From Haliotis cracherodii (taxonomy: Eukaryota), in the NCBI RefSeq assembly GCF_022045235.1, contig NW_027266265.1, positions 14,074,001 through 14,138,000 of the forward strand: a stretch of 64,000 nucleotides of DNA. The letters run 5' to 3'. Below, piece by piece: positions 15,240-64,000 of the stretch. The notes below the pieces were generated by a model that saw nothing but the letters and a program-made list of their open reading frames with translations, was not told the DNA's origin and made no database searches. The first letter of the stretch is position 1. The number at the start of each line of letters is the position of its first letter. The translations under genes and the position numbers were made by a program.

Positions 15240-16653
15240 TTACATTTCGCGACGGACCTTTCCAACTGGCATTTCCTTTGTGAATCTCACAGAAAGGTTC
15301 CTGGAGGATCGGGTTGGTTTCTTTTCAGCATCATGTCCTCTTTTGCTGTCTTTCAGAATGGATCTTACACTGGAAGTGACCTTCAACTTGGTTTCATTTA
15401 TATCTGTGGCCTTGGCCTTGGCCAAGTTGTCACCGGAAGCAGAGAAGTCTGTTTTGACATGTGAGATCCTGCTTCGAACCTTGTCCTTTGACTTTCCTGT
15501 GTAAGGTCTTCGAGCCTTCCTTGGTTGAACTGGAGGACTGACGCTGGAGGAACTGGTCCGCTTATTGGCAGGAGTGTGACAGGTCAGAAGGGCAGTCTGG
15601 CGCTGGAGAGCTGCCAGCTCTTCCTCCAGCTTCTTCCTCTGCTCCACCTCTGTCTGCTTCTCCTTCTCCCAGTCCCCCGCCAGTCCATCTAGCGTCTGCT
15701 TCAGTTCCTGGACCTCAGCCTGCGCCATTGTGTAACTGAGACGATAGTTGTAATACTCCAGCCTATAGTCCTGCCTCTCCGACTCAACTTTCAGCCTTAA
15801 GGCGTTCTCCTCCCGAAGTTGTCGGGCCTGTCGCTCGTTCTCCTCTCTCAGCTTCTGGTTCTCATTGAAAAGGTGATCGAGAAGACTGAAGAAGATATGT
15901 CGATATTTAAGATGTTTTGGCTTAAATTTCTATCTTTCACAAATACATTATATCTATACAATTATAATGAGATATATTTTTATAATTTCATCATTTAGTA
16001 GGATTTATTCCAATATTAGACACATTGCAACCAAATGACAGCTGGGTACATCCAGAATGGACATTGCTGCTCTACAAAAGCAGGGTAGTAACGGTAAACG
16101 CATATCATCTACGCTGTGCAACGTTATAGCTTTTGATCTGTCAGAGAATAAGATCAATCGGTTCTTGATTAAAATCGTCAGCTTATGTGATCTCACATCG
16201 AAGGAAAGTCATACTAAATCGTGCCTACCTTTCCTCCAAATCTCCGACTTGAGCTTTCAGGTCCATGTACTGAACTGGAAACAAAAACGATTAACATTTT
16301 ATACAAACAATAGACTCTTTTCCATATTTTGAGGTAGGCTGACTGACATTTCCCTTAGGGTTTATATTTCCTATAGGAATACATGGACCTTGATCAGATC
16401 GGTACATCCATAGACTCCCATTGTAACTAACTGCTTCAATATTGTAATTTCTTCAAACACACAGATGGTGTTATTGTTTCGACTTCTATTTAGTTTGCAT
16501 AGCACGCGGAAAATAGGAGACTATCCTACCAAGTAAATCTTGATGCAGTTCTGGCGTTCTTGGACTACGAGGGTTAGACTGACGCTCGTCCGCCTCGAGT
16601 ATGGGGGAGAGTAGTTTCCTACTCTTCAGTCGTTCTTGTGGATACATCTTCAT
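15240..16653 (-). CDS. Array gene copy 1 (inverted), 271-aa coiled-coil protein; complement(join(15240..15885,16229..16274,16530..16653)); exon 1 ~16921-17035
   Basis: Exons of 124, 46 and 646 nt with GT/AG sites, identical in length to all other copies; open frame. Confidence 0.85.
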
Positions 16654-19237: not shown

Positions 19238-19846
19238 ATGGAGTGTTAGTTGAAACGTTAACGCACTAGAAGAGCTTCATGTAAATTTTCAAAGTAGGAA
19301 ATTACCAGTGAGTATTGTTCATATGAACAGATTACTGACATATATTTGAAAATCATGGATTATCTTTTTAATCAACACGGGCTGTTACATGCAATATAAC
19401 ACAAAAGACACGGGCATAATATTATAACAACGCATAACATACTTCATCCGGTAATCAGTGGCGAGTGCACCTAACAAAAAGGGACATAACTCCGCAATGA
19501 CTAATTTTAGTCCAGTGTAACCCAGCCGTGGATGATTGCGATTCATTTTCCATGTGTTTTGTTCACTTGTGATCTTAACTGCTCCACCTCGAGTATCAAA
19601 CTGTAAAATAAACTATTATGAAATGTGACCGCGTGTTAGATGTGAGTGAAACACTTGGTATTTCTAAATGTATAGTAATCATGGAATTAAAGATGCATCC
19701 TGACGTCTTTGACTGCTTTGACAGGATAATTAATCTGGTTCCCGACTCTGTGCGTCTTCAACACTCACATTTTATATGTGTCGTGAAGAGACGGAGCCCA
19801 GCTTAGGCTTACATAAAGCTGTACCGTGCATGGTAAACACTGTCAG

Positions 19847-20033
19847 TGACGTCATAGACAGAAACAGTGGAAATGACGTCACAGAATGGTTCCATGACGA
19901 CATTGATGGTTCCCACTCAGTCGCCGACACAACTTGGTGGTGTTCAGACGTACATCTGTTGCTGCTGCAAAACTTCACATTTGTTGCCGGTCTGTGTCTA
20001 CTTGCACAAGTCTACACCTCATCTCAGTATTAG
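19847..20033 (+). promoter_or_regulatory. Copy 2 promoter and non-coding exon 1: CREs at 19847-19854 and 19874-19881, Inr TCAGTC at ~19917, donor after 20033. The same block precedes every copy.
   Basis: Two perfect TGACGTCA palindromes, an initiator consensus, an ATG-free ~115-nt leader and an AG|GTAAG donor. Confidence 0.6.
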
Positions 20034-20384
20034 GTAAGCTATGTCAGTTTAACTCCTACAGTTGGTTTACTTTTACTGATAGCCTTTGTTTCCTAACCCT
20101 CGTTCACATCTATATTTCACGGCTCTGAAATTCTTTATCAGTAAATTACCTTTGTATTTATTGACACTCCGTCTCCAATGTAATTACGGAACTCAAATGT
20201 TTCTGTGTTTTTCTGATAGATTTTCACGCACAGCTGGCACGTGTAGATTGAATCACTTTGCCTATTTGTCTGATGTTTTAGTTATTGTTTTATCCATAAC
20301 TTAGTTCTGTTTGGATCAAATCTCAGTCTGCAATGTAAATACTCAAATTCCTAAATTCAAATGTGATTATGTTTTTTCCCACAG

Positions 20385-21575
20385 ATGAAGATGTATCCAC
20401 AAGAACGACTGAAGAGGAGGAAACTACTCTCCCCCATACTCGAGGCGGACGAGCGTCAGTCTAACCCTCGTAATTCAAGAAGGCCAGAACTACATCAAGA
20501 TTTACTTGGTAGGAAATCCTGAATTTATGATACAAAACAAATTAAATGCAAGATATCATTATTTGATGTGTTTGTTTGAAGCAATTACAGTTACATTCCA
20601 AGTATGTTTTGGTCTTTATATAACAGTGGAATCGAGTCGGGTGTTTGTACTTTTGTTTTTGTTTTCGTTTCCAGTTCAGTACATGGACCTGAAATCTCAA
20701 GTCGGAGATTTGGAGGAAAGGTAGGCACTGTTTCGTTCGATATTCATGAACGTTCTTTCGACGTGACAGGTCATAGAAACGACCATTTTAATTTAATCCA
20801 GAACCAACACAATCTTCTTCTCTGTCAGCCATGAGACTAATCGTATTAATCGTACTAATGTACATCTCATTCAAATATCGTAGATAAAATGACTTTGATA
20901 ACCGATATCTTCTGAACTGTCTTTTTCAGTCTTCTCGATCACCTTTTCAATGAGAACCAGAAGCTGAGAGAGGAGAACGAGCGACAGGCCCGACAACTCC
21001 GGGAGGAGAACACCTTAAGGCTGAAAGTTGAGTCGGAGAGACAGGACTATAGATTGGAGTATTTCAACTATCGTCTCAGTTACACAATGGCGCAGGCTGA
21101 GCTCCAGGAACTCAAGCAGACGCTAGAGGGACTGGCGGGGGACTGGGAGAAGGAGAAGCAGACAGAGATGGAGCAGAGGAAGAAGCTGGAGGAAGAGCTA
21201 GCAGCTCTCCAGCGCCAGACTGCCCCTCTGACCTGTCACACTCCTGCCAATAAGCGGACCAGTTCCTCCAGCGTCAGTCCTCCAGTTCAACCAAGGAAGG
21301 CTCGAAGACCTTACACAGGAAAGTCAAAAGACAAAGTTCCAAGCAGGATCTCACAGGTGAAGACAGACTTCTCTGCTTCCGGTGACAATTTGGCCAAGGC
21401 CAAGGCCACATATAAGAATGAAACCAAGTTGAAGGCCACTCCTGGTGTAAGATCCATTCTGAAAGACACAAAGAGAGGACAGGATGCTGAAAAGAAGCCA
21501 ACCCGATCCTCCAGGAACCTTTCTGTTAGATTCACAAAGGAAATGCCAGTTGGAAAGATCCGTCACGAAATGTAA
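20385..21575 (+). CDS. Array gene copy 2, 271 aa; join(20385..20508,20675..20720,20930..21575)
   Basis: Splices to MKMYPQERLKRRKLLSPILEADERQSNPRNSRRPELHQDLL-VQYMDLKSQVGDLEE-SLLDHLFNENQKLREENERQARQLREE...SILK...RNLSVRFTKEMPVGKIRHEM*; 816 nt, intron phases consistent. Confidence 0.88.
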
Positions 21576-27431: not shown

Positions 27432-28660
27432 ATGAAGATGTATCCACAAGAACGACTGAAGAGTCGGAAACTACTCTCCCCCATACTCGAGGCGGACGAG
27501 TGTCAGTCTGACCCACGAAGTTCAAGAACGCCAGAACTGCATCAAGATTTACTTGGTAGGAGATCCTGAATTTATAATACAAAACAAATTAAATGCAAGA
27601 TAACATTACTTGATGTGTTTGTTTGAAGCAATTACAGTTACATTCCAAATATGTTTTGATCTTTATATAACAGTGGAATCGAGTCGGGTGTTTGTACTTT
27701 TGTTTTTGTTTTCGTTTCCAGTTCAGTACATGGACCTGAAATCTCAAGTCGGAGATTTGGAGGAAAGGTAGGCACAGTCTCGTTTAATATTCATGAACGT
27801 TCGTTTGGTGTGATAAGTCATAGAAATGAACATTTTAGTTTAATCTAGAACCGACACAATCTTCTTCTCTGTCAGTCACGAGACGAAATCGTAGCACATC
27901 TACCGTTACATTGTAGACCACGTGATGCCCATCCCTGATGCACACTGCCATGCAGGTGCAATGTGTCTAATGTTAGCGTACAAAATACAAAATAGAAAAA
28001 TAAGAAATGTATACCTCATTTAAATATTGACAAAATGACTTTGAGAAACGATATCTTCTAAACTATCGACATGTCTTTTTCAGTCTTCTCGATCACCTTT
28101 TCAATGAGAACCAGAAGCTGAGAGAGGAGAACGAGCGACAGGCCCGACAACTGCGGGAGGAGAACGCCTTAAGGCTGAAAGTTGAGTCGGAGAGACAGGA
28201 CTATAGGCTGGAGTATTACAACTATCGTCTCAGTTACACAATGGCGCAGGCTGAGGTCCAGGAACTGAAGCAGACGCTAGAGGGACTGGCGGGGGACTGG
28301 GAGAAGGAGAAGCAGACAGAGATGGAGCAGAAGAAGAAGCTGGAGGAAGAGCTGGCAGCTCTCCAGCGCCAGACTGCGCCTCTGACCTGTCACACTCCTG
28401 CCAATAAGCGAACCAGTTCCTCCAGCGTCAGTCCTCCAGTTCAACCAAGGAAGGCTCGAAGACCTTACACAGGAAAGTCAAAGGACAATGTTCCAAGCAG
28501 GATCTCACATGTGAAGACAGACTTCTCTGCTTCCGGTGACAACTTGGTGAAGGCCAAGGCCACAGATAAGAATGAAACCAAGTTGAAGGTCACTTCCAGT
28601 GTAAGATCCATTCTGAAAGACACAAAGAGAGGACAGGATGCTGAAAAGAAACCAACCTGA
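27432..28660 (+). CDS. Array gene copy 3, truncated to 248 aa by a CGA>TGA change; join(27432..27555,27722..27767,28084..28660). The normal stop is at 28729. Possible pseudogene.
   Basis: Intact splice sites; TGA at 28658-28660 where other copies have an Arg codon. Confidence 0.8.
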
Positions 28661-31907: not shown

Positions 31908-32465
31908 CTGTGTCGCCAGTCTGTCCGGCATAAGCGTGTCCCAAGTTTGTCTGACTTGAGTGTGTCCCCAGTCTGTGTGTCATCAGCGTGTCCCCAGTTT
32001 GTCTGACATAAGCGTGTCCCCAGTTTGTCTGACATAAGTGTGTCCCCAGTTTGTCTGACATAAGCGTGTCCCCAGTTTGTCTGACATAAGTGTGTCCCCA
32101 GTTTGTCTGACATAAGCGTGTCCCCAGTTTGTCTGACATAAGCGTGTCCCCAGTTTGTCTGACATAAGTGTGTCCCCAGTCTGTCTGACATAAGCATGTC
32201 CCCAGTTGGTCTGACATAAGGGTGTCCCCAGTCTGTCCGACTCAAGTGTCCCCAGTCTGTCTGACATAAGTGTGTCCCCAGTCTGTCTGACATCAGCGTG
32301 TCCAATGCAGCCTGTCTGACATAAGCGTGTCCCCAGTTTGTCTGATATAAGGGTGTCCCTTATCTGTCTGACATAAGCGTGTCCCAATCTGTCTGACATA
32401 AGGGTGTCCCCAATCTGTCTGCCATAAGGGTGTCCCCAGTCTGTCTGACATAAGCGTGTCCCCAT
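31908..32465. repeat. 26-bp satellite (GTGTGTCCCCAGTCTGTCTGACATAA), ~21 units
   Basis: Direct reading; length divided by 26. Confidence 0.95.
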
Positions 32466-33598: not shown

Positions 33599-34887
33599 AT
33601 GAAGATGTATCCACAAGAACGACTGAAGAGTCGGAAACTACTCTCCCCCATACTCGAGGCGAACGAGCGTCAGTCTAGCCCTCGTAGTCCAAGAACGCCA
33701 GAAATGCATCAAGATTTACTTGGTAGGAGATCCTGAATTTATAATACAAAACAAATTAAATGCAAGACATCATTACTTGATGTGTTTGTTTGAAGCAATT
33801 ACAGTTACATTCCAAATATGTTTTAGTCTTTATATAACAGTGGAATCGAGTCGGGTGTTTGTACTTTTGTTTTTGTTTGTTTCCAGTTCAGTACATGGAC
33901 CTGAAATCTCAAGTGGGAGATTTGGAGGAAAGGTAGGCACAGTCTCGTTCGATATTCCTTAACGTGACAGGTCATAAAAACGACCATTTTAATTTAATCC
34001 AAAACCGACACAATCTTATTCTCTGTCAGCCATGAGACGAAATCGTAGCACGATTTACCGTTAGTTTGTAGACCACGTGATGCCCATCCCTGATGCACAC
34101 TGCCATGCAGGTGCAATGTGTCTAATGTTGGCGTACAAAATGCAAAATAGAAAAATAAGAAATGTACATCTCATTTAAATATTATTCACAAAATCACTTT
34201 GAGAAACGAAATCTTCTAAACTATCGACATGTCTTTTTCAGTCTTCTCGATCACCTTTTCAATGAGAACCAGAAGCTGAGAGAGGAGAACGAGCGACAGG
34301 CCCGACAACTCCGGGAGGAGAACGCCTTAAGGCTGAAAGTTGAGTCGGAGAGACAGGACTATAGGCTGGAGTATTTCAACTATCGTCTCAGTTACACAAT
34401 GGCGCAGGCTGAGGTCCAGGAACTGAAGCAGACGCTAGAGGGACTGGCGGGGGACTGGGAGAAGGAGAAGCAGACAGAGATGGAGCAGAGGAAGAAGCTG
34501 GAGGAAGAGCTGGCAGCTCTCCAGCGCCAGACTGCCCCTCTGACCTGTCACACTCCTGCCAATAAGCGGACCAGTTCCTCCAGCGTCAGTCCTCCAGTTC
34601 AACCAAGGAAGGCTCGAAGACCTTACACAGGAAAGTCAAAGGACAATGTTCCAAGCAGGATCTCACATGTGAAGACAGACTTCTCTGCTTCCGGTGACAA
34701 CTTGGTGAAGGCCAAGGCCACAGATAAGAATGAAACCAAGTTGAAGGTCACTTCCAGTGTTAGATCCATTCTGAAAGACACCAAGAGAGGACAGGGTGCT
34801 GAAAGGAAACCAACCAGATCCTCCAGGAACCTTTCTGTTAGATTCACAAAGGAAATGCCAGTTGGAAAGATCCGTCGCGAAATGTAA
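33599..34887 (+). CDS. Array gene copy 4, 271 aa; join(33599..33722,33887..33932,34242..34887)
   Basis: Same exon lengths and splice sites as other copies; open frame. Confidence 0.88.
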
Positions 34888-36195: not shown

Positions 36196-39100
36196 CGCCC
36201 GACAGTCTGTCTGCCATAAGTGTTTCCCCAGTCTGTCTGCCATAACTGTGTCTCAAGTCTGTCTGCCATAAGTGTGTCCCCAGTCTCTCAGACATGTGTG
36301 TCCCCAGTCTGTCTGTCATAAGTGTGTCCCCAGTCTGTCTGATATAAGTGTGTCACCAGTCTGTCAGACATGTGTGTCCCCAGTCTGTCCGACATAAGTG
36401 TGTCCCCAGTCTGTCTGATATAAGTGTGTCACCAGTCTGTCTGACATGTGTGTCCCCAGTCTGTCCGACATAAGTGTGTCCCCAGTCTGTCTGTCATAAG
36501 TGTGTCCCCAGTCTGTCCGACATAAGTGTGTCCACAGTCTGTCTGCCATAAGTGTGTCTCCAGTCTGTCCGACATAAGTGTGTCCCCAGTCTGTCCGACA
36601 TAAGTGTGTCCCCAGTCTGTCTGCCATAAGTGTGTCACCAGTCTGTCAGACGTGTGTCCCCAGTCTGTCCGACATAAGTGTGTCCCCAGTCTGTCTGATA
36701 TAAGTGTGTCACCAGTCTGTCTGACATGTGTGTCCCCAGTCTGTCCGACATAAGTGTGTCCCCAGTCTGTCTGTCATAAGTGTGTCCCCAGTCTGTCCGA
36801 CATAAGTGTGTCCACAGTCTATCTGCCATAAGTGTGTCTCCAGTCTGTCCGACATAAGTGTGTCCCCAGTCTGTCCGACATAAGTGTGTCCCCAGTCTGT
36901 CCTACATAAGTGTGTCACCAATCTGTCCGACATAAGTGTATCCCCAGTCCGTCTGTCATAAGTGTGTCCCCATTCTGTCTGTCATAAGTGTGTCCCCAGT
37001 CTGTCCGACATAAGTGTGTCCCCAGTCTGTCTGACATAAGTGTGTCACCAGTCTGTGTGCCAGAAGTGTGTCCCCAGTCTGTCTGTCATGAGTGTGTCCC
37101 CTGTGTGTCTGACATAAGTGTGTCCCCACTCTGTCTGACATACGTGTCTCCCCAGTCTGTCTGTCATGAGTGTGTCCCCTGTCTGTTTCTCATATGTGTG
37201 TCCCCAGTCTGTGTGACATACGTGTGTCCACAGTCTGTCTGCCATAAGTGTGTCTCCAGTCTGTCCGACATAAGTGTGTCCCCAGTCTGTCCGACATAAG
37301 TGTGTCCCCAGTCTGTCCTACATAAGTGTGTCACCAATCTGTCCGACATAAGTGTATCCCCAGTCCGTCTGTCATAAGTGTGTCCCCATTCTGTCTGTCA
37401 TAAGTGTGTCCCCAGTCTGTCTGATATAAGTGTGTCACCAGTCTGTCAGACATGTGTGTCCCCAGTCTGTCCGACATAAGTGTGTCCCCAGTCTGTCTGA
37501 TATAAGTGTGTCACCAGTCTGTCTGACATGTGTGTCCCCAGTCTGTCCGACATAAGTGTGTCCCCAGTCTGTCCTACATAAGTGTGTCCCCAGTCTGTCC
37601 GACATAAGTGTGTCCACAGTCTGTCTGCCATAAGTGTGTCTCCAGTCTGTCCGACATAAGTGTGTCCCCAGTCTGTCCGACATAAGTGTGTCCCCAGTCT
37701 GTCTGCCATAAGTGTGTCACCAGTCTGTCAGACGTGTGTCCCCAGTCTGTCCGACATAAGTGTGTCCCCAGTCTGTCTGATATAAGTGTGTCACCAGTCT
37801 GTCTGACATGTGTGTCCCCAGTCTGTCCGACATAAGTGTGTCCCCAGTCTGTCTGTCATAAGTGTGTCCCCAGTCTGTCCGACATAAGTGTGTCCACAGT
37901 CTGTCTGCCATAAGTGTGTCTCCAGTCTGTCCGACATAAGTGTGTCCCCAGTCTGTCCGACATAAGTGTGTCCCCAGTCTGTCCTACATAAGTGGGTCAC
38001 CAATCTGTCCGACATAAGTGTATCCCCAGTCCGTCTGTCATAAGTGTGTCCCCATTCTGTCTGTCATAAGTGTGTCCCCAGTCTGTCCGACATAAGTGTG
38101 TCCCCAGTCTGTCTGACATAAGTGTGTCACCAGTCTGTCCGACAAAAGTGTGTCCCCAGTCTGTCCGACAAAAGTGTGTCCCCAGTCTGTCCGACATAAG
38201 TGTGTCCCCAGTCTGTCTGCAATAAGTGTGTCCCCAGTCTGTGTGCCAGAAGTGTGTCCCCAGTCTGTCTGTCATGAGTGTGTCCCCTGTGTGTCTGACA
38301 TAAGTGTGTCCCCACTCTGTCTGACATACGTGTCTCCCCAGTCTGTCTGTCATGAGTGTGTCCCCTGTCTGTTTCTCATATGTGTGTCCCCAGTCTGTGT
38401 GACATACGTGTGTCCTCAGTCTGTCTATCATAAGTGTGTCCCCACTCTGTCTGTCATACGTGTGTCCCAAGTCTGTCTGACATAAGTGTGTCCCCAGGCT
38501 GTCCGACTTAAGTGTGTCCCCAGTCTGTCTGACATAAGTGTGTCACCAGTCTGTCCGACAAAAGTGTGTCCCCAGTCTGTCTGCAATAAGTGTGTCCCCA
38601 GTCTGTCTGCCATAAGTATGTCCCCAGTCTGTGTGCCAGAAGTGTGTCCCCAGTCTGTGTGCCATGAGTGTGTCCCCTGTGTGTCTGACATAAGTGTGTC
38701 CCCAGGCTGTCCGACTTAAGTGTGTCCCCAGTCTGTCTGATATAAGTGTGTTCCCAGTCTGTCTGATATAAGTGTGTCCCCAGTCTGTCCTACATAAGTG
38801 TGTCACCAATCTGTCCGACATAAGTGTATCCCCAGTCCGTCTGTCATAAGTGTGTCCCCATTCTGTCTGTCATAAGTGTGTCCCCAGTCTGTCCGACATA
38901 AGTGTGTCCCCAGTCTGTCCGACAAAAGTGTGTCCCCAGTCTGTCTGCAATAAGTTTGTCCCCAGTCTGTCTGCCATAAGTGTGTCTCCAGTCTGAGTGT
39001 CAGAAGTGTGTCCCCAGTCTGTCTGCCACAAGTGTGTCCCCAGTATGTGTGTCATAAGTGTGTCTCCAGTCTGTCTGACAATAAGCGTGTCCCCAGTCTG

Positions 39101-40128
39101 TCTGACATGAGCGTGTCCCCAGTTTGTCTGACATGAGCGTGTCCCCAGTCTGTCTGCCACAAGTGTGTCCCCAGTCTGTCTGACATAAGTGTGTCCCCAG
39201 TTGGGAACTTCTCCAAACCTATTCTACAGAATCTGTGTGACATACGTGTGTCCTCAGTCTGTCTATCATAAGTGTGTCCCCACTCTGTCTGTCATACGTG
39301 TGTCCCAAGTCTGTCTGACATAAGTGTGTTCCCAGTCTGTCCGACATAAGTGTGTCCCCAGGCTGTCTGACATGAGCGTGTCCCCAGTTTGTCTGACATA
39401 AGCGTGTCCCCAGTCTGTCTGACATAAGCGTGTCCCCAGTCTGTCTGACATAAGTGTGTCCCCAGTTTGTCTTACATTAACGTGTCCCCAGTTTGTCTTA
39501 CATTAACGTGTCCCCGGTCTATCTGCCATAAGTGTGTCCTCAGTCTGACTGACATTAATGTGTCCCCAGTCTATCTGCCATAAGTGTGTCCCCAGTCTAT
39601 CTGCCATAAGTGTGTCCCCAGTCTATCCGACACTCTCTGACATAGGTGTGTCCCCAGTCTGTCTGTCATGAGTGTGTCCCCTGTGTGTCTGACATAAGTG
39701 TGTCCCCACTCTGTCCGACATAAGTGTATCCCCAGTCCGTCTGTCATAAGTGTGTCCCCATTCTGTCTGTCATAAGTGTGTCCCCAGTCTGTCCGACATA
39801 AGTGTGTCCCCAGTCTGTCCGACATAAGTGTGTCCCCAGTCTGTCCGACAAAAGTGTGTCCCCAGTCTGTCTGCAATAAGTTTGTCCCCAGTCTGTCTGC
39901 CATAAGTGTGTCCCCAGTCTGTGTGCCAGAAGTGTGTCCCCAGTCTGTCTGCCACAAGTGTGTCCCCAGTATGTGTGTCATAAGTGTGTCTCCAGTCTCT
40001 CTGACAATAAGCGTGTCCCCAGTCTGTCTGACATGAGCGTGTCCCCAGTTTGTCTGACATGAGCGTGTCCCCAGTCTGTCTGCCACAAGTGTGTCCCCAG
40101 TCTGTCTGACATAAGTGTGTCCCCAGTT
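36196..40128. repeat. 26-bp satellite, ~150 units, with kb-scale higher-order duplications
   Basis: Direct reading. Near-identical ORF translations are offset by 1082 bp (36364/37446, 36635/37717). Confidence 0.95.
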
Positions 40129-41416: not shown

Positions 41417-42538
41417 ATGAAGATGTATCAACAAGAACGATTGAAGAGTAGGAAACTACTCTCCCCCATACTCGAGGCGAACGAGCGTCAGTCTAGCCCT
41501 CGTAGTCCAAGAACGCAAGAACTGCATCAAGATTTACTTGGTAGGAGATCCTGAATTTATGATACAAACAAATTGAATGCAAGACATCATCACTTGATGT
41601 GTTTGTTTGAAGCAATTACAGTTACATTCCAAGTATGTCTTTATATAACAGTGGAATCGAGTCGGGTGTTTGTACTTTTGTTTTTGTTTTCGTTTCCAGT
41701 TCAGTACATGGACCTGAAATCTCAAGTCGGAGATTTGGAGGAAAGGTAGGCACAGTCTCGTTTAATATTCATGAACGTTCGTCTAAAATATACAAAAAGG
41801 AAAAACAAGAAATGTGCATCTCATTCAAATATCATAGATAAAATGACTTTGAGAAATGATATCTTCTAAACTATCGACATATCTTTTTTCAGTCTTCTCG
41901 ATCACCTTTTCAATGAGAATCAGAAGATGAGAGAGGAGAACGAGCGACAGGCCCGACAACTCCGGGAGGAGAACGCCTTAAGGCTGAAAGTTGAGTCGGA
42001 GAGACAGGACTATAGGCTGGAGTATTTCAACTATCGTCTCAGTTACACAATGGCGCAGGCTGAGGTCCAGGAACTGAAGCAGACGCTAGAGGGACTGGCG
42101 GGGGACTGGGAGAAGGAGAAGCAGACAGAGATGGAGCAGAGGAAGAAGCTGGAGGAAGAGCTGGCAGCTCTCCAGCGCCAGACTGCCCCTCTGACCTGTC
42201 ACACTCCTGCCAATAAGCGGACCAGTTCCTCCAGCGTCAGTCCTCCAGTTCAACCAAGGAAGGCTCGAAGACCTTACACAGGAAAGTCAAAGGACAATGT
42301 TCCAAGCAGGATCTCACATGTGAAGACAGACTTCTCTGCTTCCGGTGACAACTTGGTGAAGGCCAAGGCCACAGATAAGAATGAAACCAAGTTGAAGGTC
42401 ACTTCCAGTGTAAGATCCATTCTGAAAGACAGCAAGCGAGGACAGGTTGCTGAAAAAAACCCAACGCGATCTTCCAGGAACCTTTCTGTGAGATTCACAA
42501 AGGAAATGCCAGTTGGAAAGACCCGTCACGAAATGTAA
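41417..42538 (+). CDS. Array gene copy 5, 271 aa; join(41417..41540,41700..41745,41893..42538)
   Basis: Same exon structure; open frame. Confidence 0.88.
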
Positions 42539-43757: not shown

Positions 43758-46459
43758 ACAGTCTGTCTGCCAGAAGTGTGTCCCAAGTCTGTCTGACTTA
43801 AGTGTGTCCCAAGTCTGTCTGACACAAGTGTGTCCCCAGTCTGTCCGACATAAATGTGTCCCCAGTTTGTCTGACATATGTGTCTCCAGTCTGTCTGTCA
43901 TAAGTGTGTCCCAAGTCTGTCTGCCATAAGTGTGTCCCCAGTCTGTCTGACTTAAGTGTGTCTCCAATCTGTCTGACATAAGTGTGTCCCCAGTCTGTGC
44001 GACTAAAGTGTGTTCCAAGTCTGTCTGACATAAGTGTGTCCCCAGTCTGTCCGACTAAAGTGTGTCCCAAGTCTGTCTGACATAAGTGTGTCCCCAGTCT
44101 GTCTGACATAAGTGTGTCCCCAGTCTGTCCGACATAAGTGTGTCCCCAGGCTGTCCGACTTAAGTTTGTCCCCAGTCTGTCTGATATAAGTGTGTCACCA
44201 GTCTGTCCGACATAAGTGTGTCCCCAGTCTGTCTGTCATAAGTGTGTCCCAAGTCTGTCCGACATAAGTGTGTCCCCAGGCTATCCGACTTAAGTGTGTC
44301 CCAAGTCTGTCTGATATAAGTGTGTCACCAGTCTGTCCGACATAAGTGTGTCCCCAGTCTGTGTGTCATAAGTGTATCCCAAGTATGTCCGACTTAAGTG
44401 TGTCCCCAGTCTGTCCGACTTACGTGTGTCCCCAGGCTGTCCGACTTAAGTGTATCCCCAGTCTGTCTGATATAAGTGTGTCACCAGTCTGTCTGACATA
44501 AGTATGTCCCCAGTCTGTCTGACATAAGTGTGTCCCCAGTCTGTCTGATATAAGTGTGTCACCAGTCTGTCTGTCATAAGTGTGTCCCCAGTCTGTCTGT
44601 CATAAGTGAATACCCAGTATGTCCGACTTAAGTGTGTCCCCAGTCTGTCCGACTTACGTGTGTCCCCAGGCTGTCCGACTTACGTGTGTCCCCAGTCTAT
44701 CCGACATAAGTGTGTCCCCAGTCTGTCTGTCATAAGTGTGTCCCCAGTCTGTCTGTCATAAGTGTATCCCCAGTATGTCCGACTTAAGTGTGTCCCCAGT
44801 CTGTCCGACTTACGTGTATCCCCAGGCTCTCCGACTTACGTGTGTCCCCAGTCTGTCTGACATAAGTGTGTCCCCATTCGGTCTGTCATAAGTGTCTCCC
44901 CAGTCTGTCTGACATAAGTGTGTCACCAGTCTGTCCGACATAAGTGTGTCCCCAGTCTGTCTGCCATACATGTGTCCCCAGTCTGTGTGCCAGAAGTGTG
45001 TCCCCAGTCTGTGGGTCATATGTGTGTCCCCAGGCTGTCCAACTTAAGTGTGTCACCAGTCTGTCTGATATAAGTGTGTCACCAGTCTGTCCGACATAAG
45101 TGTGTCCCCAGTCTGTCTGTCATAAGTGTGTCCCCAGTCTGTCTGTCAAAAGTGTATCCCTAGTATGTCCGACTTACGAGTGTCCCCAGGCTGTCTGACA
45201 TAAGTGTGTCCCCAGTCTGTCTAACATGTGTGTCCCCAGACTGTCTGATATAAGTGTGTCCCCAGTCTGTCTGATATAAGTGTGTCACCAGTCTGTCTGA
45301 TATAAGTGTGTCACCAGTCTGTCCGACATAAGTGTGTCCCCAGTCTGTCTGTCATAAGTGTGTCACCAGTCTGTCTGTCAAAAGTGTATCCCCAGTATGT
45401 CCGACTTAAGTGTGTCCCCAGTCTGTCCGACTTACGTGTGTCCCCAGGCTGTCCGACTTAAGTGTATCCCCAGTCTGTCTGATATAAGTGTGTCACCAGT
45501 CTGTCTGATATAAGTGTGTCCCCAGTCTGTCTAACATGTGTGTCCCCAGTCTGTCTGATATAAGTGTGTCCCCAGTCTGTCTGCTATAAGTGTGTCACCA
45601 GTCTGTCTGACATAAGTGTGTCACCAGTCCGTCTGACATAAGTGTGTCCCCAGTCTGTCTGTCATACGTGTGTCCCCAGTCTGTCTGTCATACGTGTGTC
45701 CCCAGTCTGTCTGTCATAAGTGTATCCCCAGTATGTCCGACTTAAGTGTATCCCCAGTCTGTCCGACTTACGTGTGTCCCCAGGCTGTCCGACTTACGTG
45801 TGTCCCCAGTCTGTCTGACATAAGTGTGTCCCCAGTCTGTCTGTCATAAGTGTATCCCCAGTCTGTCTGATATAAGTGTGTCCCCAGGCTGTCCGACTTA
45901 AGTGTATCCCCAGTCTGTCTGATATAAGTGTGTCACCAGTCTGTCCGACATAAGTGTGTTCCCAGTCTTTGTGCCAGAAGTGTGTCCCCAGTCTGTGGGT
46001 CATATGTGTGTCCCCAGTCTGTCTGCCACAAGTGTGTCCCCAGTCTGTGTGTAATAAGTGTGTCTACAGTCTGTCTGACAATAAGCGTGTCCTCAGTCTG
46101 TCTGACATAAGTGTGTCCCCAGTTTGTCTTACATTAACGTGTCCCCAGTCTATCTGCCATAAGTGTGTCCTCAGTCTGTCTGACATAAATGCGTCCCATG
46201 TCTATCTGACATAAGTGTGTCCCCAGTCTGTCTTTCATACGTGTGTCCCCAGTCTGTCTTTCATACGTGTGTCCCCAGTCTGTCCGACATAAGTGTGTCA
46301 CCAGTCTGTCCGACACAAGTGTGTCCCCAGTCTGTCTGACATACGTGTGTCCCCAGGCTGTCCGACTTAAGTGTCTCCCCAGTCTGTCCGACTTAAGTGT
46401 ATCCCCAGTCTGTCTGCAATAAGTGTGTCCCCAGTCTGTCTGCAATAAGTGTGTCCCCA
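43758..46459. repeat. 26-bp satellite, ~100 units
   Basis: Direct reading. Confidence 0.95.
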
Positions 46460-47536: not shown

Positions 47537-48659
47537 ATGAAGATGTATCCACAAGAACGACTGAAGAGTAGGAAACTACTCTCCCCCATACTCGAGGCGA
47601 ACGAGCGTCAGTCTAACCCTCGTAGTCCACGAACGCAAGAACTGCATCAAGATTTACTTGGTAGGAGATCCTGAATTTATGATACAAAACAAATTAAATG
47701 CAAGACATCATCACTTGATGTGTTTGTTTGAAGCAATTACAGTTACATTCCAAGTATGTCTTTATATTACAGTTGAATCGAGTCGGGTGTTTGTACTTTT
47801 GTTTTTGTTTTCGTTTCCAGTTCAGTACATGGACCTGAAATCTCAAGTCGGAGATTTGGAGGAAAGGTAGGCACAGTCTCGTTTAATATTCATGAACGTT
47901 CGTCTAAAATATACAAAAAGGAAAAACAAGAAACGTGCATCTCATTCAAATATCATAGATAAAATGACTTTGAGAAACGATATCTTCTAAACTATCGACA
48001 TATCTTTTTTCAGTCTTCTCGATCACCTTTTCAATGAGAACCAGAAGCTGAGAGAGGAGAACGAGCGACAGGCCCGACAACTTCGGGAGGACAACGCCTT
48101 AAGGCTGAAAGTTGAGTCGGAGAGGCAGGACTATAGGCTGGAGTATTTCAACTACCGTCTCAGTTACACAATGGCGCAGGCTGAGGTCCAGGAACTGAAG
48201 CAGACGCTAGAGGCACTGGCGGGGGACTGGGAGAAGGAGAAGCAGAAAGAGATGGAGCAGAGGAAGAAGATGGAGGAAGAGCTGGCAGCTCTCCAGCGCA
48301 AGACTGCCCCTCTGACCTGTCACACTCCTACCAATAAGCGGACCAGTTCCTCCAGCGTCAGTCCTCCAGTTCAACCAAGGAAGGCTCGAAGACCTTACAC
48401 AGGAAAGTCAAAGGACAAGGTTCCAAGCAGGATCTCACATGTGAAGACAGACTTCTCTGCTTCCGGTGACAATTTGGTGAAGGCCAAGGCCACAGATAAG
48501 AATGAAAGCAAGTTGAAGGTCACTTCTGGTGTAAGATCCATTCTGAAAGACACCAAGAGGGGACAGGATGCTGAAAAGAAGCCAACCCGGTCCTCCAGGA
48601 ACCTTTCTGTTAGATTCACAAAGGAAATGCCAGTTGGAAAGATCCGTCACGAAATGTAA
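47537..48659 (+). CDS. Array gene copy 6, 271 aa; join(47537..47660,47821..47866,48014..48659)
   Basis: Same exon structure; open frame. Confidence 0.88.
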
Positions 48660-54235: not shown

Positions 54236-55364
54236 ATGAAGATGTATCCACAAGAACGACTGAAGAGTCGGAAACTACTCTCCCCCATACTCGAGGCGGA
54301 CGAGCGTCAGTCTGACCCACGAAGTTCAAGAACGCCAGAACTGCATCAAGATTTACTTGGTAGGAGATCCTGAATTTATAATACAAAACAAATTAAATGC
54401 AAGATATCATTACTTGATGTGTTTGTTTGAAGAAAATACAGTTACATTCCGAGTATGTTTTAGTCTTTATTTAACAGTTGAATCGAGTCGGGTGTTTGTA
54501 CTTTTGTTTTTGTTTTCGTTTCCAGTTCAGTACATGGACCTGAAATCTCAAGTCGGAGATTTGGAGGAAAGGTAGGCACAGTCTCGTTTAATATTCATGA
54601 ACGTTCGTCTAAAATATACAAAAAGGAAAAATAAGAAATGTACATCTCATTCAAATATCATAGATAAAATGACTTTGAGAAACGATATCTTCTAAACTAT
54701 CGACATATCTTTTTTCAGTCTTCTCGATCACCTTTTCAATGAGAATCAGAAGCTGAGAGAGGAGAACGAGCGACAGGCCCGACAACTTCGGGAGGACAAC
54801 GCCTTAAGGCTGAAAGTTGAGTCGGAGAGGCAGGACTATAGGCTGGAGTATTTCAACTACCGTCTCAGTTACACAATGGCGCAGGCTGAGCTCCAGGAAC
54901 TGAAACAGACGCTAGAGGGACTGGCGGGGGACTGGGAGAAGGAGAAGCAGACAGAGATGGAGCAGAGGAAGAAGCTGGAGGAAGAGCTGGCAGCTCTCCA
55001 GCGCCAGACTGCCCCTCTGACCTGTCACACTCCTACCAATAAGCGGACCAGTTCCTCCAGCGTCAGTCCTCCAGTTCAACCAAGGAAGGCTCGAAGACCT
55101 TACACAGGAAAGTCAAAGGACAAAGTTCCAAGCAGGATCTCACATGTGAAGACAGACTTCTCTGCTTCCGGTGACAACTTGGTGAAGGCCAAGGCCACAG
55201 ATAAGAATGAAACCAAGTTGAAGGTCACTCCTGGTGTAAGATCCATTCTGAAAGACACCAAGAGAGGACAGGGTGCTGAAAAGAAGCCAACCCGGTCCTC
55301 CAGGAACCTTTCTGTTAGATTCACAAAGGAAATGCCAGTTGGAAAGACCCGTCACGAAATGTAA
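54236..55364 (+). CDS. Array gene copy 7, 271 aa; join(54236..54359,54526..54571,54719..55364)
   Basis: Same exon structure; open frame. Confidence 0.88.
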
Positions 55365-56804: not shown

Positions 56805-57472
56805 CCCCCAGTCTTTCTGCCATAAGTGTGTCCCCAGTCCGTCTGCCATAAGTGAGTCCCAAGTCTGTCTGACATAAATGTGTCCCCACTCTGTCTGACA
56901 TAAGCGTGTCCCAAGTCTGTCTGAAAAACGTGTGTCCCCAGTCTGTCCGACTTAAGTGTGTCCCCAGTCTGTCTGACATAAGTCTGTCCCAAGTCTGTCC
57001 CCAGTCTGTCTGACATACGTGTGTTCCCAGTCTGTCTGACAAACGTGTGTCCCCAGTCTGTCTGACTTAAGTGTGTCTCCAATCTGTCTGACACAAGTGT
57101 GTCTCCAGTCTGTCTGACATAAGTGTGTTCCCAGTCTGTATGACATAAGTGTGCCCACAGTCTGTCTGACATACGTGTGTCCCCGGTTAATCCGACATAA
57201 GTGTGTCTCCAGTCTGTCCGGCATAAGCGTGTCTCCAGTCTGTCCGACTTAAGTGTTTCCCCAGTCTGTCTGACATCCGTGTGTCTCCAGTCTGTCCGAC
57301 TTAAGTGTGTCCCCAGTCTGTCTGACATAAGTGTGTCCCCAGTCTGTCTGACATAAGTGTGTCCCCATCTGTCTGACATAAGTGTGTCCCCAGTTTGTCT
57401 GACATAAGCGTGTCACCAGTCTGTCTGACATAAGTGTGTCCTCAGTCGATCTTACATAAGTGTGTCCCCAGT
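56805..57472. repeat. 26-bp satellite, ~26 units
   Basis: Direct reading. Confidence 0.95.
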
Positions 57473-58783: not shown

Positions 58784-59907
58784 ATGAAGATGTATCCACA
58801 AGAACGACTGAAGAGTAGGAAACTACTCTCCCCCATACTCGAGGCGAACGAGCGTCAGTCTAGCCCTCGTAGTCCAAGAACGCCAGAACTGCATCAAGAT
58901 TTACTTGGTAGGAGATCCTGAATTTATGATACAAAACAAATTAAATGCAAGACATCATCACTTGATGTGTTTGTTTGAAGCAATTACAGTTACATTCCAA
59001 GTATGTCTTTATATAACAGTGGAATCGAGTCGGGTGTTTGTACTTTTGTTTTTGTTTTCGTTTCCAGTTCAGTATATGGACCTGAAATCTCAAGTCGGAG
59101 ATTTGGAGGAAAGGTAGGCACAGTCTCGTTTAATATTCATGAACGTTCGTCTAAAATATACAAAAAGGAAAAACAAGAAATACTGCATCTCATTCAAATA
59201 TCATAGATAAAATGACTTTGAGAAACGATATCTTCTAAACTATCGACATATCTTTTTTCAGTCTTCTCGATCACCTTTTCAATGAGAATCAGAAGCTGAG
59301 AGAGGAGAACGAGCGACAGGCCCGACAACTCCGGGAGGAGAACGCCTTAAGGCTGAAAGTTGAGGCGGAGAGGCAGGACTATAGGCTGGAGTATTACAAC
59401 TATCGTCTCAGTTACACAATGGCACAGGCTGAGCTCCAGGAACTGAAGCAGACGCTAGAGGGACTGGCGGGCGACTGGGAGAAGGAGAAGCAGACAGAGA
59501 TGGAGCAGAGGAAGAAGCTGGAGGAAGAGCTGGCAGCTCTCCAGCGCCAGACTGCCCCTCTGACCTGTCATACTCCTGCCAATAAGCGGACCAGTTCCTC
59601 CAGCGTCGGTCCTCCAATTCAACCAAGGAAGGCTCGAAGACCTTACACAGGAAAGTCAAAGGACAAAGTTCAAAGCAAGATCTCACATGTCAAGACATAC
59701 TTGTCTGCTTCCGGTGACAGCTTGGTGAAGGCCAAGGCCACAGATAAGAATGAAAGCAAGTTGAAGGTCACTTCCAGTGTAAGATCCATTCTGAAAGACA
59801 GCAAGAGAGGACAGGTTGCTGAAAAAAACCCAACGCGATCTTCAAGGAACCTTTCTGTGAGATTCACAAAGGAAATGCCAGTTGGAAAGACCCGTCACGA
59901 AATGTAA
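58784..59907 (+). CDS. Array gene copy 8, 271 aa; join(58784..58907,59068..59113,59262..59907)
   Basis: Same exon structure; open frame. Confidence 0.88.
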
Positions 59908-61431: not shown

Positions 61432-63361
61432 CCCCAGTCTTTCTGCCATAAGTGTGTCCCCAGTCCGTCTGCCATAAGTGAGTCCCAAGTCTGTCTGACA
61501 TAAATGTGTCCCCACTCTGTCTGACATAAGCGTGTCCCCAGTCTGTCTGACTTAAGTGTGTCCCCAGTCTGTCTGACTTAAGTGTGTCCCCAATCGATGT
61601 GTCATAGGTGTGCCCACAATCTGTCTGTCATAAGTGTGTCCCAAGTGTGTCCGACATAAGTGTGTACCCAGGCTGTCCGACTTAAGTGTGTCCCCAGTCT
61701 GTCTGTCATAAGTGTGTCCCCAGTCTGTCTGTCATAAGCGTATCCCCAGTCTGTCTGCCATAAGTGTGTCCCCAGTCTGTCAGACATAAGTGTGTCCCCA
61801 GTCTGTCTGTCATAAGCGTATCCCCAGTCTATCTGCTAAGTGTGTCCTCAGTCTGTCTGACATAAGTGTGTCCCCAGTTTGTCTGACATAAGTGTGTCCC
61901 CAGTCTGTCTGCCATAAGTCTGTCCCCAGTCTGTGTGCCAGAAGTGTGTCCCCAGTCTGTCTGTCATAAGTGTGTCCCCAGTCTGTCTGACATAAGCGTG
62001 TCCCCAGTTTGTCTTACATTAACGTGTTCCCGGTCTATCTGCCATAAGTGTGTCCTCAGTCTGTCTGACATAAATGTGCCCCAAGTCTATCTGACATAAG
62101 TGTGTCCCCAGTCTGTCAGTCATACGTGTGTCCCCAGTCTGTCTGACATAAATGTGTCCCCAGTCTGTCTGACATAAGTGTGTCCTCAGTCTGTCTGTCA
62201 TAAGTATCCCCAGTCTGTCTGACATAAGTGTGTCCTCAGTCTGTCTGTCATAAGTATCCCCAGTCTGTCTGACATAAGTGTGTCCCCAGTCTGTCTGACA
62301 TAAGGGTGTCCCCAGTCTGTCAGTCATACGTGTGTCCCCAGTCTGTCTGACATAAATGTGTCCCCAGTCTGTCTGACATAAGTGTGTCCTCAGTCTGTCT
62401 GTCATAAGTATCCCCAGTCTGTCTGACATAAGTGTGTCCTCAGTCTGTCTGTCTTAAGTATCCCCAGTCTGTCTGACATAAGTGTGTCCCCAGTCTATCT
62501 GACATAAGGGTGTCCCCAGTCTGTCAGTCATACGTGTGTCCCCAGTCTGTCTGACATAAATGTGTCCCCAGTCTGTCTGACATAAGTGTGTCCTCAGTCT
62601 GTCTGTCATAAGTATCCCCAGTCTGTCTGACATAAGTGTGTCCTCAGTCTGTCTGTCATAAGTATCCCCAGTCTGTCTGACATAAGTGTGTCCCCAGTCT
62701 GTCTGACATAAGTGTGTCCTCAGTCTGTCTGTCATAAGTATCCCCAGTCTGTCTGTCATAAGTATCCCCAGTCTGTCTGACATAAGTGTGTCCCCAGTCT
62801 GTCTGACATAAGGGTGTCCCCAGTCTGTCTGTTATGAGTGTGTCCCCAGGCTGTCTGTCATGAGTGTGTCACCAGTCTGTCTGTCATAAGTATCCCAGTC
62901 TGTCTGACATAAGTGTGTCCCCAGTCTGTCTGTCATAAGTGTGTCCCAAGTCTGTCTGTCATAAGTGTGTCCCCAGTATTTTTGACATACGTGTGTCCCA
63001 AGTCTGTTTGACATACGTGTGTCCCCAGTCTGTCTGACATACGTGTGTCCCCAGTCTGTCTGACATACGTGTGTGCCCAGTCTTTCTGCCATAAGTGTGT
63101 CCCCAGTCTGTCTGCCATACGTGTGTCCCCCGTCTGTCTGACATACGTGTGTCCTCAGTCTGTCTGTCATAAATGTGTCCCAATCTGTCTGACAGGCGTG
63201 TGTCCTCAAGCTGTCTGTAATAAGTGTGTCCCCAGTCTTTCTGTCATGAGTGTGTCCCCAGTTCCATCATAAGTTTGTCCCCAGTCTCTGACATAAATGT
63301 GTCCCCAATCTGTCTGACATACGTGTGTCACCAATCTGTCTGCCATACGTGTGTCCCCAGT
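61432..63361. repeat. 26-bp satellite, ~75 units, including a local expansion of shortened (~22-bp) variants
   Basis: Direct reading; CATAAGTATCCCCAG variants cluster at 62200-62780. Confidence 0.95.
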
Positions 63362-64000
63362 TGGGAACTTCTCTAAACCTATTCTACAGAATCGAGCAGC
63401 ATATTTAGTGCGGATCATCTTATGTCAGACAGCACGTTAACTCGAGATGAATGTCACGTCTATTACAACCTGGAGCGTTAGGTGAAAAGTTAACGCACTA
63501 GAAGAGCTTCCTGTCAACTATTATACCAGAAACTCAACAGTGAATATTTGATGACAAATGTTGACTGTGAACAACTTACTGACATATATGTGAACGCTAT
63601 GGATTTGTTTTGAATCAATACTGGCTGTTGTGTGTAATATAACACAAACAATATGAGAAAAAGACACGGACATAATATTTTTATGACGAATCACAGGCTT
63701 GCTCTGGTATTCAGTGGAGAGTGCACCCAAACAAAAGGGACACAACTCCGCATTGACTAATTTCAGTCCAGTGTAACCCTGCAGCCATGATGGAATTTGT
63801 GGATGATAGCGATTCTTTTTCCAAGTGACGAAGTGAGTGAGTGAGTATGGTTTTACGCAGCTTTTAGCAATATTCCAGCAATATCACGGCGGGGGACACC
63901 AGAAATGAGCTTCACACATTGTACCCATGTCGGGAATCGAACCCGGGTCTTCGGCGTGACGAGCGAACGCTTTAACCACCAGGCTACCCCACAGTCCCAT
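63362..64000 (+). other. Upstream region of a presumed ninth copy (array continues past the window), including a family A SINE at ~63828-63998 (-)
   Basis: Co-linear with the regions upstream of copies 5 and 8. Confidence 0.8.

What the first reader, a model, noticed from the sequence alone, without database searches (positions are those of the whole stretch)
20412..20453. BubR1/RepoMan-type B56 docking motif K(R/S)RKLLSPILEA(D/N)E in an exon the ORF track misses
Seen: LSPILE followed by acidic residues in all 8 copies. Established: LSPIxE is the high-affinity form of the LxxIxE motif (BubR1 LSPIIE, RepoMan LSPIPE), and phosphorylation of the SP serine and downstream acidic residues strengthen binding. 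The D/N difference just downstream (D in copies 1, 2, 3, 7; N in 4, 5, 6, 8) could tune affinity. The preceding basic patch could act as an NLS (inference).
Basis: partly seen in the sequence, partly recalled or inferred. Interest (0 to 1): 0.7.

Follow-up and report, generated by a model that had tools for sequence, protein, structure and literature searches.

The report
Abalone gene family with phosphatase-docking tag
Eight tandem copies of a spliced gene, found so far only in abalones, encode a predicted rod-shaped protein whose front end carries a six-residue tag kept in 41 of 42 otherwise diverged gene copies, and this tag likely docks the phosphatase PP2A-B56, probably more tightly once phosphorylated, so the family would steer that enzyme to a still unknown site.

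Summary
All 8 copies read LSPILE, with D in copies 1, 2, 3, 7 and N in 4, 5, 6, 8. The exon is spliced in at GT..AG joints in likely-RNA contigs, and only this frame is open. It is not hidden from annotation: copy 7 equals a RefSeq protein, 271/271.

The motif looks like a real LxxIxE site:
- It is kept in 41 of 42 family loci in this genome, including a clade about 30% identical, while flanks diverge.
- Its codons vary synonymously, and amino-acid changes stay inside the B56 consensus.
- It lies in a low-confidence, likely disordered end.
- The abalone B56 pocket is intact.
- A predicted complex puts it in that pocket (0.79, best control 0.03), though solved look-alikes may explain the pass.

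Two side claims are weak. D/N tuning is unsupported: that position is free across the family, and Asp there did not change BubR1 affinity. The NLS pattern occurs only in copy 2; the basic stretch better fits B56's known basic-patch site. The family has no Pfam match or hit outside Haliotis. Verdict: new member of a known motif class in an undescribed, amplified family; binding untested.

The parts
20427..20444 (+). LSPILE (residues 15-20), predicted PP2A-B56 docking motif, copy 2
20406..20423 (+). Basic stretch RLKRRK (residues 8-13) upstream of the motif; candidate B56 basic patch; NLS pattern only in this copy
   Evidence: PMC7108865 passages
20448..20450 (+). Codon 22, GAC (D) or AAC (N); motif position 8
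19847..20033 (+). Exon 1 of copy 2, likely non-coding; 5' end not defined; donor at 20034
   Evidence: joint 20031>20383 GT..AG (cut +2); upstream ATGs give only short ORFs
20385..20508 (+). Exon 2 of copy 2, starts with the ATG; residues 1-41
20675..20720 (+). Exon 3 of copy 2 (46 nt)
20930..21575 (+). Coding part of exon 4 of copy 2; protein 271 aa
20484..21221 (+). Genomic span coding for the predicted long helix (residues 34-154), likely coiled coil
   Evidence: heptad signal only in about 97-145
21303..21320 (+). RRPYTG (residues 182-187), second conserved island, in the basic tail
19847..19881 (.). Two TGACGTCA palindromes 27 bp apart (CRE-like; label recalled)
15240..16653 (-). Copy 1 coding span (271 aa; motif 16594-16611; D22)
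27432..28660 (+). Copy 3 coding span (248 aa, early stop; motif 27474; D22)
33599..34887 (+). Copy 4 coding span (271 aa; motif 33641; N22)
41417..42538 (+). Copy 5 coding span (271 aa; motif 41459; N22)
47537..48659 (+). Copy 6 coding span (271 aa; motif 47579; N22)
54236..55364 (+). Copy 7 coding span (271 aa, identical to P0001; motif 54278; D22)
58784..59907 (+). Copy 8 coding span (271 aa; motif 58826; N22)

Best explanation
The eight copies are spliced genes for a 271-residue protein whose LSPILE tag likely binds the substrate pocket of PP2A-B56, probably more tightly after a proline-directed kinase phosphorylates Ser16, so that the protein would act as a switchable adaptor bringing the phosphatase to whatever its predicted rod and basic tail bind. 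Shown: gene structure, reading frame, motif conservation, intact B56 pocket sequence. Predicted: disorder of residues 1-33, helix 34-154, docking pose. Inferred: real binding (about 0.85); the Ser16 switch (Ser and Pro are invariant although unphosphorylated BubR1 does not need them for binding); a helper role for the upstream basic patch in this subfamily; dimerisation; and the adaptor role with RRPYTG in the tail as target contact or phosphosite (about 0.5). Tissue and target are unknown.
For: Splicing: exon 3/4 joint in 4 of 4 likely-RNA runs; GT..AG exon 2/3 joint in 3 of 4; exon 1/2 joint in 3 of 4. Two intron-covering runs show none of the three joints. Conservation: LSP[IV][LP]E in 41 of 42 family loci of G000, and [LF]SP[IV]xE in 34 of 40 database proteins, the 6 misses being models that start downstream of the motif position. 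Among 11 subfamily representatives L, S, P and E are invariant with 2-3 synonymous codons each, position 4 is I or V only, and none of 24 flanking columns is invariant (pairwise identity 0.05-0.38). An unanchored alignment of 10 first coding exons gives the same island; the motif sits 9-17 codons after AG|ATG in 40 of 41 loci; shuffled loci give a match in 5 of 330. Both deep clades of the tree carry it. All changes at positions 1, 4 and 6 fit [LMFI]xx[ILV]xE (PMC10970375). pLDDT is 46-48 over residues 1-30. Abalone B56 (P0161) keeps all 13 BubR1-contact residues named in PMC4930772, plus R188, R201 and the four acidic-patch residues. Complex model: score 0.79, best of 3 controls 0.03; the mark was reached by 51 of 78 solved and 2 of 108 mismatched microbial pairs (eukaryotes 39 of 65 and 2 of 126); runs agree in at least 50% of contacts; partner pLDDT at least 48. 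Ten of the 13 contact residues are in the predicted interface, with I18 against H187/Y190/S230/I231 as for BubR1 I672. Among the 8 copies dN/dS is about 0.36.
Against: No binding was measured. B56-peptide complexes are solved (entries 5jja and 5sw9), so the pass may be from memory; it shows likeness, and the tool is untested on peptides and disordered chains. S173, K240 and H243 were not in the confident interface. The basic patch and acidic positions 7-9 are weak or absent in the distant clade (0-3 basic residues in the 12 upstream). The motif class is common (a FIMO scan lists 897 human proteins, PMC10915630). The RNA status of the runs is a guess, their contigs are mostly under 99% alike, and all four carry T at 20417, so expression of copy 2 itself is not shown. 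Heptad periodicity is significant in only 4 of 15 windows, uncorrected. Nothing here identifies a target, so the adaptor role is inference from architecture.
Confidence: 0.55

Rival explanations
1. The motif binds B56, but only to control the protein's own phosphorylation (it is a substrate, not an adaptor), for example at Thr186 of RRPYTG.
For: R183 and T186 are invariant in the 17-protein alignment, and an RRPYT-like word is found in 39 of 41 loci. B56-regulated sites tend to have basic residues upstream and no +1 proline (PMC7327492 passages), which fits this site.
Against: About 165 residues, including a helix of about 18 nm if straight, separate motif and site; the same paper finds that motif position affects which sites are reached. 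It also could not confirm the basic preference in vitro.
Confidence: 0.2
2. The proteins are decoys: high copy number makes a dose-tunable sink that blocks the B56 pocket and lowers PP2A-B56 activity in one cell type.
For: 16 copies in this array, 7 in a second one and about 42 loci in all; a strong-form motif; no catalytic domain. LxxIxE peptides work as B56 inhibitors in cells (PMC7327492).
Against: A sink would not need the conserved helix (lowest dN/dS, 0.27) or the RRPYTG island. Tandem amplification is common in this genome according to other scan notes (unchecked).
Confidence: 0.12
3. LLSPILE is kept as another phospho-SP signal, such as an Fbw7/Cdc4 phosphodegron (pS/T-P-x-x-E with hydrophobic residues before it; consensus recalled, not found quoted).
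For: S, P and the +4 E are invariant and the residue before the motif is mostly hydrophobic.
Against: The +2 position is always I or V and never P, and the phosphosite is never T. That is what B56 requires, and not the recalled degron preference. No Fbw7 model was run.
Confidence: 0.08
4. The match is chance, or reflects a DNA or RNA element, in a recently duplicated gene.
For: The 8 window copies have identical motif codons, so alone they prove nothing; the loose consensus arises in 54% of shuffles.
Against: Third codon positions vary while amino acids stay fixed across clades about 30% identical.
Confidence: 0.03

Closest known systems
BubR1 KARD motif (KKLSPIIEDS) bound to B56gamma1 (PMC4930772, passages and section 9 read; PMC10970375, passages read)
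   Same: L-S-P-I-x-E core, basic residues before, acidic residues after; predicted to use the same pocket residues in the same register.
   Different: BubR1 is a conserved multidomain kinetochore protein; this protein has no sequence relation to it. Position 8 is D or N here, a phosphorylatable Ser in BubR1.
RepoMan/CDCA2 (PLLpSPIPELPE) and the basic-patch class KIF4A, NHS, AIM1 (PMC7108865, passages read)
   Same: LSPIPE is the exact form in the distant abalone clade; the window subfamily has 5 basic residues in the 12 before the motif.
   Different: RepoMan is a PP1 targeting subunit (recalled); the abalone family has no conserved PP1 motif. The basic patch is not family-wide.
Haliotis RefSeq 'uncharacterized' proteins (XP_071084294.1 and relatives, with automatic labels such as Cep83-like, paramyosin-like, NST1-like)
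   Same: These are the same genes or their orthologues and paralogues, with exon 2 included.
   Different: No motif or function is attached in the names shown; no Pfam family passes its cut-off for the first member and the best E-value of any member is 0.0017.
Shugoshin-type PP2A-B56 adaptors (architecture recalled)
   Same: Small protein with a helical rod, a basic tail motif and a PP2A-B56 link: works-like analogy only.
   Different: No shugoshin Pfam or PDB match; shugoshin binds B56 at a site far from the LxxIxE pocket (PMC4930772 abstract).

Membership tests
PP2A-B56 LxxIxE interactors | [LMFI]xx[ILV]xE core | tested here: met
   L15, I18, E20 in 8 of 8 copies; it is the only loose match in each protein; consensus
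PP2A-B56 LxxIxE interactors | Motif in a flexible, accessible region | tested here: met
   pLDDT 46-48 over residues 1-30, no helix before residue 34; prediction only
PP2A-B56 LxxIxE interactors | Motif conserved above its flanks at protein level | tested here: met
   41 of 42 loci; synonymous codon variation; flanks 0.05-0.38 identity
PP2A-B56 LxxIxE interactors | A B56 with an intact pocket in the same organism | tested here: met
   Two B56 genes on C45; P0161 exons match one of them; contact residues identical. The second gene's pocket was only partly inspected.
PP2A-B56 LxxIxE interactors | Modelled docking in the canonical pocket | tested here: met
   0.79 against best control 0.03; solved look-alikes exist, so it shows likeness only
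PP2A-B56 LxxIxE interactors | Measured binding, lost on L/I/E mutation, raised by phospho-Ser at position 2 | not testable with these tools
   Needs ITC, FP or pull-down
Basic-patch subclass (KIF4A, RepoMan, NHS, AIM1) | Conserved basic stretch within about 15 residues upstream | tested here: inconclusive
   3-5 basic residues in the near clade, 0-3 in the distant clade
Classical monopartite NLS | K-[KR]-x-[KR] (pattern recalled) | tested here: not met
   Present in 1 of 8 copies; other NLS types not tested
PP1 interactors (SILK plus RVxF) | Canonical, conserved RVxF and SILK | tested here: not met
   Strict RVxF 0 of 8, relaxed LSVRF 7 of 8, SILK 8 of 8; SILK becomes SIVK or SIMK in other species' closest relatives and both words are lost in other subfamilies
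BubR1, RepoMan or shugoshin orthologues | Sequence homology | tested here: not met
   No such hit in Pfam, PDB profile search or the 1.84-billion-protein HMMER search
Fbw7/Cdc4 phosphodegron | Phospho-dependent Fbw7 binding and turnover | not tested
   Pattern fit only, consensus recalled

The most novel reading that the evidence does not exclude
Abalones evolved their own family of about 40 phospho-switched PP2A-B56 adaptors, transcribed from paired CRE-like sites and amplified in tandem arrays, that supplies a lineage-specific, shugoshin-like targeting (or dose-tuned blocking) layer for the phosphatase in germ cells or cell division.
Probability: 0.22. Interest if true: 0.7.

Novelty: new member of a known kind. 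Interest (0 to 1): 0.42.

Why it matters
It gives a first testable molecular handle on a large abalone gene family that RefSeq leaves uncharacterised or labels by coiled-coil resemblance. It also shows a six-residue docking motif outlasting nearly all similarity around it. If the adaptor reading holds, a core mitotic phosphatase has been given a new, copy-number-amplified targeting protein in one mollusc genus. The motif class itself is well known and common, which caps the surprise.

Tried and rejected
1. PP1 dual-docking idea (SILK 232, SVRF 255): rejected as not canonical and not conserved.
2. D/N tuning: D in 5 and N in 11 of 16 array copies, both states also in other species; no support for function.
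3. Alternative frames of exon 2: closed in all copies.
4. Processed (intronless) copy as source of the joints: no match in G000 spans both sides of residue 56/57 in one frame (best candidates only), and two intron-covering runs lack the joints.
5. Known family: Pfam at E<=0.1 gave only weak hits, best 0.0017; PDB profile best E 0.013, short helical stretches; ESM Atlas gave unnamed clusters at 0.92-0.93 for P0001 and only leads under 0.9 for the P0021 helix. No fold search was run, since a single helix is uninformative.
6. Mobile-element origin: no support from Pfam or from the long ORFs I read by eye on the flanks; no repeat library was searched.
7. Expression: no RNA holder on record was listed; the one raw-read run, a miRNA library, laid 0 reads and is no test; tissue could not be learned.
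8. Scan look-ups by place, sequence and words were empty.
9. Wang et al. 2016 (Structure) is not held and Hertz et al. 2016 was not read; both are known here only through citing papers. PMC7776573, PMC11694028 and PMC10185843 (passages seen) added nothing used. No supplements were opened; expression tables in supplements could bear on tissue.

Full report
OBSERVATION. Window 20412-20453 is codons 10-23 of an exon that begins AG|ATG at 20385 and reads KRRKLLSPILEADE. LSPILE occurs eight times in six frames of the window, once in each copy of a repeated gene: one on the minus strand, seven on the plus. The eight copies have identical motif codons, so they count as one observation. The loose B56 consensus appears in 54% of shuffles of the protein and LSPIxE in 0.025%.

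GENE STRUCTURE. Copy 2 has exon 1 ending at 20033, exon 2 at 20385-20508, exon 3 at 20675-20720 and exon 4 coding at 20930-21575. This gives 271 aa in seven copies and 248 aa in copy 3; the other two frames of exon 2 are closed in all eight. Contigs of four likely-RNA runs from four studies show the exon 3/4 joint in 4 of 4, a clean GT..AG exon 2/3 joint in 3 of 4 (the fourth joins with a diverged exon end) and the exon 1/2 joint in 3 of 4 (the fourth has a near-identical join). A fifth such run covers only exons and shows two of the joints plus a join from within exon 2 to exon 3; two larger runs cover the introns and show none; a miRNA library laid nothing. RNA status is the tool's guess and the contigs come from paralogues or relatives, so use of the exon is shown for the family, not for copy 2. 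Copy 7 is identical to RefSeq XP_071084294.1, named by the source as an uncharacterized Haliotis cracherodii protein. The exon is therefore already annotated.

FAMILY. A word-based search with exon 4 gave 18 proteins, all Haliotis. A profile of them against 1.84 billion representatives gave 7 hits at E<=0.001, six named Haliotis and one unnamed. In G000 I grouped 70 matches into 42 loci: 16 in this array, 7 in a second array, the rest on seven other contigs, many near 30% identity; this is a lower bound. A tree of the helical region (56 rows; L041 and L053 left out because their exon 4 was not extracted) splits into two deep clades, with a long-branch warning for P0023. Pfam, PDB and ESM Atlas name no family. 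AlphaFold2 gives one confident helix at 34-154 and low confidence at both ends, with pLDDT 46-48 over residues 1-30. A heptad pattern is significant only around 97-145. The tail has 28 basic against 9 acidic residues. Among the eight copies dN/dS is about 0.36, and 0.27 in the helix (uncorrected, pairs not independent).

THE MOTIF IS SELECTED. LSP[IV][LP]E is present in 41 of 42 loci; the miss is a stop-broken locus of which 5 kb were fetched. It is present as [LF]SP[IV]xE in 34 of 40 database proteins. The six misses begin downstream of the motif position, and I could not check their DNA; only 15 of 23 members of the main cluster were listed. In 11 representatives that I chose, L, S, P and E are invariant with two or three codons each, position 4 is I or V, and none of 24 flanking columns is invariant. 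That table was anchored on the motif, so I repeated it unanchored on 10 first coding exons and got the same island. The motif lies 9-17 codons after AG|ATG in 40 of 41 loci, and shuffled loci matched in 5 of 330. Every change at positions 1, 4 and 6 fits [LMFI]xx[ILV]xE (PMC10970375, passages).

THE PARTNER. G000 has two B56 genes. P0161 matches the exons of one and keeps all 13 BubR1-contact residues named in PMC4930772, the phosphate contacts R188 and R201, and the acidic patch E276/E310/D313/E316 of PMC7108865. Folding P0161 86-480 with P0001 1-40 scored 0.79, best control 0.03. The mark was reached by 51 of 78 solved and 2 of 108 mismatched microbial pairs, and by 39 of 65 and 2 of 126 eukaryotic ones; the runs agree in at least 50% of contacts, partner pLDDT is at least 48, and my alignments were not used. 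Ten of the 13 contacts are in the interface, in the BubR1 register. Such complexes are solved and peptides are untested for this tool, so the pass shows likeness, not binding.

SIDE CLAIMS. In BubR1, phosphorylation at position 2 raised affinity about 11-fold, while S670A and P671A changed little (PMC4930772, passages and section 9). An invariant S-P in this family is therefore best read as a kept phospho-switch (inference). D/N sits at position 8. A review lists acidic residues there as helpful, but Asp at that position left BubR1's Kd unchanged, and six residues occur there in the family. The NLS pattern is met in copy 2 alone. A basic patch within about 15 residues upstream is a described B56 contact that the same paper notes resembles an NLS (PMC7108865, passages); it is clear in the near clade and weak in the distant one.

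MECHANISM AND RIVALS. Most likely the flexible front end docks PP2A-B56, enhanced by Ser16 phosphorylation, and the rod and basic tail with RRPYTG place it at a target: binding about 0.85, adaptor role about 0.5. Rivals are self-regulation as a substrate, which fits B56's tendency toward basic, non-proline sites (PMC7327492, passages); a dose-amplified decoy; an Fbw7-type degron (recalled consensus, disfavoured by the I/V-only position); and chance.

NOVELTY. Three full-text searches found nothing on this family: six gene ids, abalone with PP2A and B56, and Haliotis lineage-specific tandem coiled-coil expansion. Subscription papers and supplements were not searched. One scan note, e1-9847235, describes an abalone coiled-coil gene pair whose closest record carries a label like that of P0007 and P0008; it may be this family, and I did not check it. 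The motif class is established and common (PMC10915630, passages). Verdict: a new member of a known kind, in an undescribed family; interest 0.42.

Noticed in passing
window 19847-19854 and 19874-19881, and the same place in all 8 copies: TGACGTCA occurs 16 times in the window, always as a pair 27 bp apart at exon 1. At least one such palindrome lies within the up to 1.2 kb available upstream of the motif in 36 of 41 family loci, which suggests CREB/ATF-type control. Some likely-RNA contigs reach upstream of it, so it may lie inside the 5' UTR.
   Followed up: partly
window 19830-20033: A 67-codon upstream ORF in the main frame stops with TAG exactly at the exon 1/2 joint in copy 2; copies 3-8 have the same TAG and copy 1 has CAG. 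RefSeq models P0034 and P0020 translate this as an N-terminal extension.
   Followed up: partly
window 21303-21320: RRPYTG is a second conserved island in the basic tail, RRPYT-like in 39 of 41 loci; candidate kinase site.
   Followed up: partly
window 28658-28660: Copy 3 ends at 248 aa through a CGA to TGA change.
   Followed up: yes
L057, L041, L035, L056: Several paralogues look broken: an in-frame stop after the motif (L057), an apparent frameshift in exon 2 (L041), a split exon 4 (L035) and stops with no motif found (L056). This fits birth-and-death turnover or assembly error.
   Followed up: partly
P0021, P0022, P0023: The distant clade has LPPIKD, LPPITD or LPPVSE just after the RRPYT-like island, a possible second, weaker LxxIxE-like site.
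   Followed up: no
window 31910-32464, 36203-40127, 43759-46459, 56806-57472, 61432-63361: A 26-bp minisatellite of very variable length separates the gene copies and may favour unequal crossing-over.
   Followed up: no
window 63659-64000 and G000:C2:14139145-14177812: A ninth repeat unit begins at the window's end; the array has 16 copies, and a second array of 7 lies about 2.1 Mb away.
   Followed up: yes
L058:1666-1794 and 2993-3118: The abalone B56 gene has two tandem versions of one late exon, used alternatively in P0161 and P0165.
   Followed up: no
L061:8289-8594: An ORF that looks ankyrin-like by eye lies just beyond the right end of the array.
   Followed up: no
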